Shown here one piece after another: positions 24,603 through 27,256 of a stretch of DNA of 34,385 nucleotides (position 1 is the stretch's first letter; every line of letters begins with the position of its first letter). Below the pieces are notes generated by a model. The model did no database searches and was not told where the DNA came from. It saw nothing but the letters and a program-made list of their open reading frames with translations. Source of the DNA: a virus. The stretch lies in UHGV virus genome UHGV-0351038; one strand, written 5' to 3'. Made by a program: the position numbers and the translations under genes.

Positions 24603-24884
24603 TCACATCCAGCCACGAAGTTGATGTTCAACTACAACCGCGTATTCATCGAATATTGACGATTTTTTTGCATCATTAATGATGCGCACGTTTACAAAAT
24701 ATCCATCTTCCTTAACACATACCGGTTCGCCATCTTCAGTCAGTTCTCCGGTTTCTTTGTACACGTTACCTATCACGTCAATAAGAATATCATCCTGCAT
24801 CGACTCGTCATCATAATAGCCAATGCTATCCATAAAGGCCGAAAAGTCGGCCCTGTCTGCAAATTTGAGTGTTAAATCTTTCAT
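24603..24884 (-). CDS. Hypothetical acidic protein (93 aa) downstream of the fibre gene
   Basis: ATG overlaps the stop of the fibre gene; no family recognised. Confidence 0.4.
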   Translation of the reverse strand: MKDLTLKFADRADFSAFMDSIGYYDDESMQDDILIDVIGNVYKETGELTEDGEPVCVKEDGYFVNVRIINDAKKSSIFDEYAVVVEHQLRGWM

Positions 24885-27256
24885 TAGATTGACTCCCCCA
24901 TCTGAGCATCAGTCAATGCCTTGTGCCATATTCTGAAATTCCTGACATGACCAAATAAATGACGCAACCCGGCTGTAGTCTGGCCTCCAATACGGATAAT
25001 TGCGGAGTTCTGAATATAGGACCATGTGGCTTTCTTTTCGCTGGATATACGCCCGTTACTTACTGAGCACGTAGACTGATCTGACTTTACACGCATCCCC
25101 ATAACCATTTTTTCAAGCGATGCGTTTTCGTTTACCCGTCTGTTAGCCAAACCTATATCACAATAAGGAAATCCGTCGTAATCTGTTGAACGACCGAAGC
25201 CAAGAATAATAGCCGCTCCGGTTTGATGACCGCCGGTATCAAAAACACGCGGTGCTGCATTTGGCGTTTTATACCAGTTCTTATGTACCTCACAAAGAAC
25301 CGTAAAAGGAAGATTATAAAGATTATTCTTAATTGGAACTGTAACTATATCGCTTGCGCGGGTCGCCGCCGTCGCTCCTGATATAATAAAAGATGATACA
25401 CAAGGCCCATCTTCTACTTGTGGGGTGGCCAGATAAATATAGTCACCAGATACGGTTGCCCCGCTCTGCTTAGGAGAATACTGTATCTGAGAGCCTATTT
25501 TTAACTCCCCATCAATTGCCTGAATTGTTGCCTCTGCAAAAATCCATCCGGTAGCTTCGTCCTTTCTGACTCTCGCTGTAATTCTTGAGGCAGCACCGCC
25601 TGTCATATTAATTTCAAGCGTTTGTGTATCAATATACGCATCACCAAGAAAAGTTGTTGCGCTACCGTCATATTTATCAAACCGGATACGCAACCTTACC
25701 TGCAGTTCTGTTTTAAAACGACATGAGGTTGTCACGTGTTTATTATCGCCTGAGACATCAACTGACTTTGTTGCAGCAATTGATGCCATATTAATGGCTG
25801 AGGTTTGCCCAATCAGAGAATCGTTGCAGACAAACTTTCCATAGGTAAAACCAAAATTATCCGTCCCTGTTTCGGTCACATCCATATTTGACGATCGCCC
25901 CCAACTGGCAGGGCTTTCCGAATTGAGCATGTAGTTTGTTCTTTGCCCCTCAATAAGCAGGCCATCACGTTCAAATCGTGGCTCGTCAATGGCAGCCTCT
26001 GTCAGCACACCAGATTTGTTAATATAGGTTGCTTTCGATGCACGTTTAAACTTAACAATCTTGTCGCCAGGCATCGTTATTTCATCGTCACCAATAACAA
26101 TTTTTTTATATGATGGCGAAAAGCCCGTAATCATATCCAGCGAATCGTTAAATGGTATCCACACATCAGGCAGCGGCTGTAAGACATATTTATACGGCTC
26201 CGCAGCCTGGCTTGCGTACTCTCTGGCTGCATCTTCGCTTGCTTTAGCTGCCGTCTGGCTTGCTGCCGATGCTTTCGCTGAGTTCGCAGCCGCTGTTTCG
26301 CTCACCTTTGCGTTGGTTTCACTGGTTTTTGCTGCTTTTTGACTGTTAGCTGATGCAGTAGCAGAAGCAGCCGCCGCGCTTGCAGAACTGGCTGCGGCAC
26401 TCTCGCTTTGGGCCGCTGCATCCTGACTGCTTTTCGCCGCAGTTTCACTGGCTTTGGCATTCGTTTCGCTGGTCTTCGCTGCCGTCTGGCTGGACTTTGC
26501 GTTAGTTTCACTCGTCTTCGCAGCTTTCTGGCTGTTAGCCGCAGCAGTTGCTGATCCAGCTGCTGAAGTCGCAGAACCGGCTGCCGCGCTCTCGCTTTGG
26601 GCTGCTGCAACCTGGCTGTTTTTTGCCGCAGTTTCACTGGCTTTAGCATTCGTTTCGCTGGTCTTCGCTGCCGTCTGGCTGGACTTTGCGTTGGTTTCGC
26701 TCGTCTTTGCGGCTGTCTCGCTATTTTTCGCGTTGGTTTCTGATTTTTTAGCTGCTGTTGCGGAGTTTGCCGATGCAGTCTGCGAGGCCGCTGCCGCCTG
26801 TGCGCTGTTAGCTGCATTCGTTTCTGAGGTTTTCGCCGCGTTCTTCGATGATGCCGCTGCAGTTTCGGATTTCTTTGCCGCCGCTGCGCTCTGAGAGGCG
26901 GCTTCAGCGTTGCGTGCCGCTTCTTCCACCATCTGCTCAAAGCGGCGCAGTGCCTCCGGTCGGACATCATCCTCCGTCATGGCACCGAGAAAATCATTCA
27001 GCGTACCTGGTCTGGAACCTTCATAGACGGTAATGGTCCCGGCATGTGAAGGCGGAAAACCTTCAACCAGCAGGGTGACGCTGTACTGACCATGCTCAAC
27101 ATCCATGCTGTAACGTCCGGCTTCATCCGGATTTTCAGAGGCCACCGTGTTCACCACCACCGTGCTGCTGGTTCGTCTGGCCTTCAGCACAATGGTGCAG
27201 TTCTGTACTGGTTTTCCTGTGCCATCTTTAAGCACGCCAGAAATTTTTACTGTCAT
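24884..27256 (-). CDS. stf: Side tail fibre (lambda Stf-like N-terminus, repetitive Ala/Ser/Thr-rich shaft, distinct C-terminal lectin-like domain)
   Basis: N-terminus MTVKISGVLKDGTGKPVQNCTIVLKA matches recalled lambda Stf; shaft has tandem KTSETNAK-type repeats; C-terminus (GLRHLFGHVRNFRIWHKALTDAQ) has a LamG/ConA-like signature. Confidence 0.75.
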   Translation of the reverse strand: MTVKISGVLKDGTGKPVQNCTIVLKARRTSSTVVVNTVASENPDEAGRYSMDVEHGQYSVTLLVEGFPPSHAGTITVYEGSRPGTLNDFLGAMTEDDVRPEALRRFEQMVEEAARNAEAASQSAAAAKKSETAAASSKNAAKTSETNAANSAQAAAASQTASANSATAAKKSETNAKNSETAAKTSETNAKSSQTAAKTSETNAKASETAAKNSQVAAAQSESAAAGSATSAAGSATAAANSQKAAKTSETNAKSSQTAAKTSETNAKASETAAKSSQDAAAQSESAAASSASAAAASATASANSQKAAKTSETNAKVSETAAANSAKASAASQTAAKASEDAAREYASQAAEPYKYVLQPLPDVWIPFNDSLDMITGFSPSYKKIVIGDDEITMPGDKIVKFKRASKATYINKSGVLTEAAIDEPRFERDGLLIEGQRTNYMLNSESPASWGRSSNMDVTETGTDNFGFTYGKFVCNDSLIGQTSAINMASIAATKSVDVSGDNKHVTTSCRFKTELQVRLRIRFDKYDGSATTFLGDAYIDTQTLEINMTGGAASRITARVRKDEATGWIFAEATIQAIDGELKIGSQIQYSPKQSGATVSGDYIYLATPQVEDGPCVSSFIISGATAATRASDIVTVPIKNNLYNLPFTVLCEVHKNWYKTPNAAPRVFDTGGHQTGAAIILGFGRSTDYDGFPYCDIGLANRRVNENASLEKMVMGMRVKSDQSTCSVSNGRISSEKKATWSYIQNSAIIRIGGQTTAGLRHLFGHVRNFRIWHKALTDAQMGESI
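26266..26911. repeat. Tandem coding repeats in the fibre shaft (KTSETNAK units, plus a larger about 65-aa duplication)
   Basis: Repeated peptide blocks in the translation and matching DNA repeats (for example gctttggcattcgtttcgctggtcttcgctgccgtctggctggactttgcg recurs). Confidence 0.7.

What the first reader, a model, noticed from the sequence alone, without database searches (positions are those of the whole stretch)
24884..27256. Side tail fibre with lambda Stf N-terminus, expandable tandem repeats and a lectin-like C-terminal domain
The N-terminal about 110 aa match recalled lambda Stf. The shaft is built from KTSETNAK-type repeats including a large internal duplication, and the distal end resembles a LamG/ConA-like domain (ending GHVRNFRIWHKALTDAQ) rather than the lambda Stf tip. 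The DNA repeats (26266-26911) are prone to slippage and may vary fibre length.
Basis: partly seen in the sequence, partly recalled or inferred. Interest (0 to 1): 0.4.

Follow-up and report, generated by a model that had tools for sequence, protein, structure and literature searches.

The report
Lambdoid side tail fibre, lectin-like tip
This is the intact side tail fibre gene of a phage-21-like prophage of E. coli: a lambda-type attachment domain, a coiled-coil rod whose length varies between strains in whole repeat units, and a sugar-binding-type head in place of lambda's tip; it is a common, already catalogued kind of fibre.

Summary
A 790-aa ORF lies at 24884-27256, on the minus strand, downstream of J and lom in a phage-21-like prophage that carries sitABCD.

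- **N-terminus.** Residues 1-94 are 87% identical to the solved lambda Stf collar domain.
- **Shaft.** Residues 116-353 form 34 uninterrupted heptads (S-x-x-A/N-A-x-x). They include a 63-aa (189-nt, nine-heptad) tandem duplication.
- **Length variation is real.** One database protein equals this one minus exactly one 63-aa unit. Relatives with one, two and three units exist. 59 of 61 relatives differ in shaft length by a multiple of 7 residues.
- **Mechanism of variation.** Unequal recombination fits better than slippage, because the copies are only 85% identical.
- **How common.** The exact protein is already in NCBI and its 90% cluster has 4,554 members, so this is a known kind.
- **Extra finding.** A ~92-aa gene overlaps the fibre stop codon in 75 of 75 related loci. 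It is often followed by a second small fibre gene, which hints at a branched fibre.

The parts
24884..27256 (-). stf: side tail fibre gene, 790 aa (stop codon TAA at 24884-24886)
   Evidence: ORF. PHROG phrog_1419 'tail protein' matches full length, 1484.6 bits. 97% identical 790-aa side tail fibres occur in phages PhiR63_1, HannyBb, Tritos and 2G7b. The exact sequence is in NCBI (EFO1942873.1 and others) and its 90% cluster has 4554 members.
26975..27256 (-). Residues 1-94: StfN collar domain that fixes the fibre to the tail
   Evidence: PDB 9e7m_Ta E=2e-47. 82/94 identical to lambda Stf. Pfam PF08400 covers 1-131. In Ur-lambda, residues 1-91 form a dodecameric collar at the gpV/gpM junction (PMC12617516).
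26198..26911 (-). Residues 116-353: shaft of 34 uninterrupted heptads S-x-x-(A/N)-A-x-x (inferred trimeric coiled coil, about 35 nm)
   Evidence: Heptad table and period-7 spectrum, 0 of 2000 shuffles reach the observed power. 58% identity to lambda orf-401 over residues 1-342. The Ur-lambda paper models its residues 102-393 as a proximal coiled coil. The length estimate of 0.148 nm per residue is an inference.
26345..26722 (-). Two tandem copies of a 189-nt / 63-aa (nine-heptad) unit: residues 179-241 and 242-304
   Evidence: TRF period 189, 2.2 copies. The repeat finder family D2. 161/189 nt identical, longest exact run 47 nt, 15 synonymous and 9 non-synonymous codon differences. Natural one-, two- and three-copy alleles exist.
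24887..26176 (-). Residues 361-790: exchangeable distal head module, starting at PLPDVWIPFNDSL
   Evidence: The same module is joined to diverse N-termini, including P2 gpH-type ones. 2073 clusters at 50% identity have E<=0.001. AF2 model of residues 355-790: pLDDT 88.7, pTM 0.87.
25355..25957 (-). Residues 434-634: beta-sandwich domain homologous to the RcGTA head spike fibre
24887..25348 (-). Residues ~637-790: terminal pentraxin/LamG (ConA-like) domain ending GHVRNFRIWHKALTDAQMGESI
24603..24884 (-). orf93: conserved 93-aa partner gene; its ATG overlaps the stf TAA by 1 nt
23889..24593 (-). orf234: second small fibre-like protein with conserved N-terminal motif MATSTVIPGDITTLK and a C-terminal Peptidase_S74 chaperone domain
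   Evidence: Pfam PF13884, 27.4 bits against a cut-off of 22. phrog_3299 C-terminus. S116 and K121 are invariant in the alignment with the HannyBb and VogelGryff homologues. The same N-motif heads a gp37-type fibre followed by Tfa in a P2-like contig. An N-motif gene is present in 46 of 57 related loci.
27275..27304 (-). Terminator-like hairpin (13-bp stem plus T-run) between lom and stf
   Evidence: Consensus scan only. Phage 21 has an annotated terminator at the equivalent position upstream of its stf.

Best explanation
This is the functional side (lateral) tail fibre of a phage-21-like lambdoid prophage of E. coli, built from three exchangeable parts.

(1) Residues 1-94 are a lambda-type collar domain. 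In lambda, twelve copies of this domain ring the tail at the tube/tip junction and carry four trimeric fibres. That arrangement is shown for lambda and inferred here from 87% identity.

[quoted passage not shown] Recombination between its in-register repeats adds or removes whole heptad blocks, above all a 63-aa nine-heptad unit. Natural alleles therefore differ in rod length while keeping the coiled-coil register. The length variation is shown; the recombination mechanism is inferred.

(3) Residues 361-790 are a bilobed head of ConA/LamG-type beta-sandwiches that replaces lambda's gp37-like, Tfa-dependent tip. By fold, and by homology to the capsule-binding head spike fibre of the Rhodobacter gene transfer agent, I infer that it binds a surface polysaccharide (O-antigen, LPS core, ECA or capsule). 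This would give fast, reversible primary adsorption, while J engages the terminal receptor.

The overlapping 93-aa gene always accompanies this head and most likely serves its folding or assembly, or acts as an adaptor. That role is inferred from linkage only.
For: - **Identity and context.** Gene order is J-lom-stf on the minus strand. The locus matches sit-carrying phages 21, Perceval and ev017 at ~95% identity.
- **Collar.**; lambda architecture from PMC12617516.
- **Rod.** Uninterrupted heptads with extreme period-7 signal; 58% identity to the lambda proximal coiled-coil region.
- **Length polymorphism.** P0001 equals the window protein minus exactly 63 aa, with all 727 other residues identical. 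P0002 equals it minus 72 aa plus 2 substitutions. Shaft classes are 135/156/189/198/212/227/261 aa, and 59 of 61 proteins differ from this one by a multiple of 7. A three-copy allele of 855 aa occurs in L078.
- **No lambda tip, no Tfa.**
- **orf93 linkage.** 75 of 75 loci, and across siphophage and P2-like myophage contexts.
- **General precedent.** Lateral fibres of siphophages act as glycan-binding, non-essential primary adsorption devices (PMC8594841; PMC12312913).
Against: - No ligand is known for this head in any coliphage I could find, so glycan binding is inferred from fold and from one distant homologue.
- ConA/LamG folds also bind proteins (neurexin, laminin, BoNT Hc).
- Pfam Laminin_G_3 is below threshold on this protein itself.
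- The structure is a monomer prediction. The oligomeric arrangement of three heads on a trimeric rod was not modelled.
- A functional effect of rod length is untested. The multiple-of-7 rule would follow automatically from recombination between 21-nt-periodic repeats, and two singleton alleles break it.
- The fold of orf93 could not be assigned.
Confidence: 0.72

Rival explanations
1. Branched two-component fibre. The ConA-like head, alone or with orf93, is mainly a docking platform for a second fibre protein (orf234 here). That protein carries the true variable receptor-binding tip and its own chaperone.
For: A gene starting MAT(S/V)T(V/T)IPxDITxLK follows stf-orf93 in the window, HannyBb and VogelGryff. 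It also does so in a P2-like contig, where its distal part is a gp37-type tip followed by Caudo_TAP. It is present in 46 of 57 related loci, with lengths from 90 to 583 aa. The N-motif is conserved while the middle and the chaperone type vary, as expected of a plug-in second fibre. The S74 domain with a conserved Ser-x4-Lys suggests self-cleaving maturation. There is precedent in the branched LtfA/LtfB fibres of T5-like DT57C (PMC10713586).
Against: Phage 21 and the whole 686-688-aa class have stf plus an orf93 homologue but no second fibre gene, so the head must work without it. orf234 is very short; about 115 aa would remain after an S74-type cleavage. No physical interaction has been shown. 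This reading does not exclude the head also binding glycan.
Confidence: 0.2
2. The head binds a protein receptor, such as an outer-membrane porin as lambda Stf does with OmpC, rather than a polysaccharide.
Against: The closest characterised homologue binds capsule. The top structural neighbours are carbohydrate-binding modules and lectin domains of sialidases. The head is unrelated to the OmpC-binding gp37-type tip.
Confidence: 0.12
3. The head is an enzyme (a glycanase or lyase of the ConA-like GH16/PL type) that degrades surface polysaccharide, i.e. a depolymerase.
Confidence: 0.04
4. The repeat-number variation is a neutral by-product of a recombination-prone, low-complexity coding region and has no role in tuning the fibre.
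For: Multiples of 7 follow automatically from 21-, 42- and 189-nt periodic DNA. The two copies are old or derive from different alleles: 15 synonymous and 9 non-synonymous codon differences, and each copy matches a different single-copy allele, P0002 or P0001. Lambda side fibres are dispensable for plating.
Against: Only register-preserving variants are common (59 of 61), which suggests selection against out-of-register rods. That says nothing about whether length itself is selected.
Confidence: 0.5

Closest known systems
Bacteriophage lambda (Ur-lambda) side tail fibre Stf (orf-401/orf-314, UniProt P03764) with Tfa
   Same: Genomic position after J and lom. N-terminal collar domain 87% identical over 94 aa. 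Ala/Ser-rich proximal coiled-coil shaft 58% identical over residues 1-342.
   Different: No hinge, gp37-like distal needle or OmpC-binding tip (no match to orf-314). No Tfa (Caudo_TAP) gene downstream. Instead there is a ConA-like head plus a 93-aa partner gene.
Side tail fibre of Escherichia phage 21 (OL657228, CPT_21_22) and of phages HannyBb, Tritos, 2G7b and PhiR63_1
   Same: Same architecture and same family (phrog_1419). HannyBb, Tritos, 2G7b and PhiR63_1 are 97% identical and also 790 aa. Phage 21 has the same stf / orf92 / membrane protein / sitDCBA layout.
   Different: The phage 21 fibre is 686 aa, with a shaft shorter by 105 aa (class 156). It diverges strongly inside the terminal LamG-like domain, residues ~655-757, and lacks the second fibre gene.
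RcGTA head spike fibre Rcc01080 (GhsB; PDB 6TB9; NCBIfam NF048003)
   Same: Homologous beta-sandwich domain (profile E=4e-36; NF048003 above its cut-off). It is a distal adhesin on a phage-like particle, and binding to capsular polysaccharide has been shown experimentally (PMC10218006).
   Different: It is attached to capsid vertices by a 10-residue N-terminal peptide, not to a tail collar through a coiled coil. It is 325 aa long and lacks the additional C-terminal LamG/pentraxin-like domain.
Branched lateral tail fibres LtfA/LtfB of T5-like phage DT57C
   Same: Adjacent fibre genes, a trimeric coiled coil emerging from a tail collar, and a second fibre thought to attach through the first. In the window, the second protein has an S74-type chaperone domain.
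   Different: No sequence relationship was tested or claimed. In DT57C the evidence for branching is genetic and structural; here it rests on gene linkage only.
Pseudomonas phage Pa193 gp46 and E217 gp45 baseplate proteins (PDB 9B45, 8ENV)
   Different: Those are baseplate components of myophages, not the distal end of a side fibre.

Membership tests
Lambda-type side tail fibre (Stf; Pfam PF08400 phage_tail_N) | N-terminal collar domain homologous to lambda gpStfN | tested here: met
   PF08400 229.4 bits against a cut-off of 26.6. PDB 9e7m_Ta 2e-47. 82/94 identical.
Lambda-type side tail fibre (Stf; Pfam PF08400 phage_tail_N) | Encoded directly downstream of the central fibre gene J (and lom) in a lambdoid late operon | tested here: met
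   J at 28075-31554, lom at 27408-28007 and stf at 24884-27256, all on the minus strand.
Lambda-type side tail fibre (Stf; Pfam PF08400 phage_tail_N) | Proximal trimeric alpha-helical coiled-coil shaft | tested here: inconclusive
   The sequence evidence is strong: 34 uninterrupted heptads and 58% identity to the lambda shaft. Helicity and trimer state were not modelled or measured.
Lambda-type side tail fibre (Stf; Pfam PF08400 phage_tail_N) | gp37-like distal tip that needs the Tfa chaperone (canonical lambda/P2/T4 type) | tested here: not met
   No similarity to lambda orf-314. No Caudo_TAP hit in the three downstream ORFs.
ConA-like lectin / LamG superfamily (Pfam Laminin_G_3 PF13385, clan CL0004) | Significant match to the Pfam model | tested here: inconclusive
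   Window protein 13.8 bits, E=0.066, below the cut-off of 27.6. However, 21 of 24 aligned family members match, best E=6.4e-12.
ConA-like lectin / LamG superfamily (Pfam Laminin_G_3 PF13385, clan CL0004) | Two-sheet jelly-roll beta-sandwich fold | tested here: met
   [not shown]
ConA-like lectin / LamG superfamily (Pfam Laminin_G_3 PF13385, clan CL0004) | Carbohydrate (or Ca2+-dependent ligand) binding | not testable with these tools
   Needs binding assays or a liganded structure.
Phage head spike fibre domain (NCBIfam NF048003, RcGTA Rcc01080) | Match to the NF048003 domain model above its curated cut-off | tested here: met
   52.2 bits against 36, residues 434-634 covering model positions 1-181 of 182. 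Profile against the 6tb9_F3 sequence E=4.2e-36.
Phage head spike fibre domain (NCBIfam NF048003, RcGTA Rcc01080) | Attachment to capsid vertices as a head spike | tested here: not met
   Here the domain sits at the end of a tail-collar fibre. The domain is shared, but the role as a head spike is not.
Branched two-protein lateral fibre (DT57C LtfA/LtfB type) | Second fibre gene adjacent to the first, with its own maturation chaperone | tested here: met
   orf234 has Peptidase_S74 at 27.4 bits against a cut-off of 22. A conserved N-motif gene is present in 46 of 57 related loci.
Branched two-protein lateral fibre (DT57C LtfA/LtfB type) | Physical attachment of the second protein to the first | not testable with these tools
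   No multimer prediction is available. Needs virion proteomics, cryo-ET or pull-downs.

The most novel reading that the evidence does not exclude
The stf-orf93-orf234 cassette encodes a modular, branched side fibre. The ConA-like head, with the ubiquitous 92-93-aa protein as adaptor or chaperone, would both bind glycan and carry a plug-in second fibre recognised through a conserved ~15-residue N-terminal peptide. This cassette moves intact between lambdoid siphophages, Seuratvirus-type lytic siphophages and P2-like myophages. In addition, heptad-quantised copy number of the 63-aa unit (one, two or three copies, roughly 26, 35 and 45 nm of rod) would be selected to match the depth of the host's O-antigen or capsule layer.
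Probability: 0.15. Interest if true: 0.55.

Novelty: new member of a known kind. Interest (0 to 1): 0.3.

Why it matters
Side tail fibres set the adsorption rate and host range of lambdoid phages. They are also the part swapped in engineered lambda delivery particles (PMC11338833). This locus documents four things of practical use:
- a natural fusion point (PLPDVWIPFNDSL) at which a lectin-type head is joined to lambda-, Seuratvirus- and P2-type fibre stems;
- a small partner gene that would probably have to be co-transferred with that head;
- natural rod-length variants of one, two and three repeat units that keep the coiled-coil register, which could serve as a ready-made length series;
- a possible second, plug-in fibre.

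None of this changes current understanding of phage fibres. It is an ordinary, very common E. coli prophage gene whose head has simply not been characterised biochemically.

Tried and rejected
- **DNA of the one-copy allele.** I looked up P0001 to show the 189-bp indel at nucleotide level, but no contig is on record. The claim therefore rests on exact protein comparison.
- **Hit H40.** I suspected that E. coli PCN033 (H40, 96% coverage) was a one-copy allele. Its stf is 791 aa, and the missing coverage lies elsewhere.
- **Variable surface of the head.** A per-position conservation profile was dominated by near-identical sequences and was uninformative. The only evidence for a variable terminal domain is the pairwise comparison with phage 21.
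- **Literature.** Searches for HannyBb and for phage 21 plus sitABCD plus side tail fibre found nothing. No paper was found that characterises the receptor of this head in coliphages.
- **Depolymerase reading.** Rejected as unlikely, for lack of a catalytic motif and because enzyme neighbours score lower.
- **Domain-by-domain fold assignment.** Domain assignments rely on sequence-profile coordinates.
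Full report
**What is there.** The reported coordinates hold one ORF of 790 codons, 24884-27256, on the minus strand. Reading along that strand, it follows J (28075-31554) and lom (27408-28007; Pfam Ail_Lom). After it come a 93-aa ORF (24603-24884), a 234-aa ORF (23889-24593), a 97-aa membrane-protein-like ORF (23585-23878) and, on the opposite strand, sitABCD, whose sitC and sitD ORFs lie at 21782-23493. The same stf / small ORF / membrane protein / sitDCBA layout is annotated in Escherichia phage 21. The right half of the window matches sit-carrying lambdoid phages (phage 21, Perceval, ev017, PhiR63_2) at ~95% identity. The 4.6-kb locus is 99.4-100% identical in several complete E. 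coli genomes. The exact protein is in NCBI, and its 90%-identity cluster has 4,554 members, many of 790/791 aa. Isolated phages PhiR63_1, HannyBb, Tritos and 2G7b encode 97%-identical 790-aa 'side tail fiber' proteins. PHROG phrog_1419 ('tail protein') matches end to end. So this is a common, already catalogued prophage gene.

**N-terminus.** Pfam phage_tail_N covers residues 1-131 (E=1.5e-68). The 94-residue Stf fragment resolved in lambda tail structures (PDB 9e7m/9mgh) matches at E=2e-47. Identity to lambda orf-401 is 82/94, 94/110 and 107/131. In Ur-lambda this domain (residues 1-91) forms a dodecameric collar at the gpV/gpM junction that carries four trimeric fibres (PMC12617516).

**Shaft.**
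- BLASTP aligns residues 1-342 to lambda orf-401 at 58% identity. That region is modelled in Ur-lambda as the proximal trimeric coiled coil, residues 102-393.
- Written in sevens, residues 116-353 form 34 uninterrupted heptads, S-x-x-(A/N)-A-x-x. Composition is 36% Ala and 18% Ser. Period-7 power for Ala is 8.75, against a maximum of 1.73 in 2000 shuffles.
- At the DNA level TRF reports a 189-nt period in 2.2 copies at 26306-26722, with nested 42- and 21-nt periods; the repeat finder agrees.
- The two 189-nt copies (residues 179-241 and 242-304) share 161/189 nt and 56/63 aa. Their longest exact run is 47 nt, and they differ by 15 synonymous and 9 non-synonymous codons. Sixty-three residues are exactly nine heptads.

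**Is the shaft 'expandable'?** Yes, in the sense that natural alleles differ by repeat blocks.
- Database protein P0001 (727 aa) equals the window protein with exactly 63 residues removed and every other residue identical. The breakpoint can sit anywhere within a 31-aa perfectly repeated stretch.
- P0002 (718 aa) equals the window protein minus 72 residues, plus two substitutions. P0002 keeps the window's first copy and P0001 keeps its second.
- Among 61 relatives with the lambda-type N-terminus and this head, shaft lengths fall into classes of 135, 156, 189, 198, 212, 227 and 261 aa. Fifty-nine of the 61 proteins differ from the window by a multiple of 7.
- In 80 IMG/VR loci the classes are 156 (14 loci), 261 (47 loci) and one of 324 aa. 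The last, L078, has three tandem 63-aa units in an 855-aa fibre.
- At 0.148 nm per residue, one, two and three copies would give about 26, 35 and 45 nm of heptad rod. This is an inference.
- Because the copies are only 85% identical, unequal homologous recombination, possibly between different alleles, fits better than polymerase slippage. I could not test this.
- Whether length matters functionally is unknown. The multiple-of-7 rule follows in part from the DNA periodicity itself.

**Distal head.**
- Residues 361-790 form a module that begins at PLPDVWIPFNDSL. The module also occurs behind quite different N-termini, including P2 gpH-type ones. It is widespread: 2073 clusters at 50% identity have E<=0.001.
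- With a 24-sequence alignment spanning 25-68% identity, AlphaFold2 gave a confident all-beta model with pLDDT 88.7 and pTM 0.87.
- Sequence profiles divide the module into two lobes. NCBIfam NF048003 'GTA_spike_fiber' matches residues 434-634 above its cut-off.
- The family profile hits the RcGTA head spike fibre Rcc01080 (E=4e-36), a phage tail fibre gp17 (2e-17) and E217 gp45 / Pa193 gp46 (~5e-12) over profile positions ~44-280. It hits C-reactive protein and other pentraxins and BoNT Hc (E~1e-3) over positions ~260-426.
- Pfam Laminin_G_3 matches 21 of 24 family members (best 6e-12), but the window protein only at E=0.066.

**Likely function.**
- RcGTA Rcc01080 binds capsular polysaccharide in fluorescent-protein binding assays (PMC10218006).
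- Lateral fibres of siphophages generally bind surface glycans as non-essential primary receptors (PMC8594841). Gifsy-1 Stf binds an LPS-core galactose (PMC12312913).
- The best-supported mechanism is therefore reversible, multivalent binding of a host polysaccharide by up to twelve heads per virion, which speeds delivery of J to its terminal receptor. The copy number is taken from lambda.
- A depolymerase role is unlikely. Enzyme neighbours score lower than lectins, no E-x-D-x-x-E motif is present, and family-invariant residues lie in framework strands.
- A protein receptor cannot be excluded.

**Surroundings.**
- The stf stop codon overlaps the ATG of orf93 (TAATG). orf234 starts 9 nt after the orf93 stop codon, behind a GGGAG. 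None of the downstream ORFs is a Tfa/Caudo_TAP protein.
- orf93 (phrog_1361, no Pfam or NCBIfam hit) has homologues directly after the fibre in HannyBb (92%), phage 21 (53%), the lytic Seuratvirus VogelGryff (41%) and a P2-like myophage contig (48%).
- In IMG/VR, 75 of 75 related loci with enough downstream DNA have an orf93 homologue with a 1- or 4-nt overlap (the 686-688-aa class uses a GTG-start MRDFTLRF variant).
- The tight linkage to the head, whatever the fibre stem, suggests a dedicated assembly factor or adaptor. That is inference from linkage alone.

**Second fibre gene.**
- orf234 has a Peptidase_S74 intramolecular-chaperone domain above the Pfam cut-off.
- It shares an N-terminal motif (MATSTVIPGDITTLK) and an invariant Ser116-x4-Lys121 with longer homologues in HannyBb (343 aa) and VogelGryff (388 aa).
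- In the P2-like contig, the gene in this position has the same N-motif but a gp37-type tip, and is followed by Tfa.
- Forty-six of 57 related loci have such a gene, with lengths from 90 to 583 aa. The 686-688-aa fibre class lacks it, and so does phage 21.
- This pattern resembles the branched LtfA/LtfB fibres of DT57C (PMC10713586) and is the most novel reading left open. It rests on gene order only.

**Verdict.** Both the observation and the interpretation are essentially correct. The gene is a member of a known, abundant family of lambdoid side tail fibres with an exchanged, lectin-type head. What is not in the literature I could search:
- the biochemical ligand of this head;
- the role of the always-linked 92-93-aa gene;
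- the heptad-quantised one-, two- and three-unit rod-length series;
- the possible plug-in second fibre.

Interest is modest (0.3).

Noticed in passing
[not shown]
   Followed up: yes
window 23889-24593 (minus): The 234-aa 'tail fiber domain-containing protein' has a conserved N-terminal motif MATSTVIPGDITTLK and a Peptidase_S74 self-cleaving chaperone domain (Ser116/Lys121 conserved). Homologues of 227-583 aa with other middles and tips sit at the same position elsewhere. It may be the second arm of a branched fibre.
   Followed up: partly
window 20044-23493 (plus) and 23585-23878 (minus): The sitABCD iron/manganese transporter operon lies inside the prophage, directly beyond the fibre cassette and a 97-aa putative membrane protein (phrog_1443). 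This is the same cargo arrangement annotated in phage 21, Perceval, ev017 and PhiR63_2.
   Followed up: partly
window 26061-26342 (+), 26454-26894 (+), 26302-26970 (-): Long alternative-frame and antisense ORFs (93, 146 and 222 aa) lie inside the repeat region. They are almost certainly artefacts of the periodic, stop-poor Ala/Ser/Thr codon array. Lambda carries a similar antisense annotation (orf206b) inside orf-401.
   Followed up: no
window 27275-27304 and 28037-28056 (minus): Strong terminator-like hairpins with T-runs lie between lom and stf and between J and lom. Phage 21 has annotated terminators after J. Expression of stf presumably depends on Q-antiterminated late transcription.
   Followed up: no
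L078 (IMGVR_UViG_2541047862_000009), fibre ORF: This allele has three tandem copies of the 63-aa unit (855-aa fibre, 324-aa shaft), which completes a natural one-, two- and three-copy series.
   Followed up: yes
phage record MG065692.1 (Campylobacter phage C13), 63369-64664: An unannotated 'Campylobacter phage' record contains an 88%-identical copy of the E. coli-type head module (residues 359-790). It may be contamination, a chimeric assembly or real transfer.
   Followed up: no
L064 and L065 (IMGVR_UViG_2724679539_000001, 2613-12923 and 12574-22884 reversed): The same viral contig carries the fibre locus twice in inverted orientation with overlapping ranges. This looks like a palindromic assembly artefact.
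   Followed up: no
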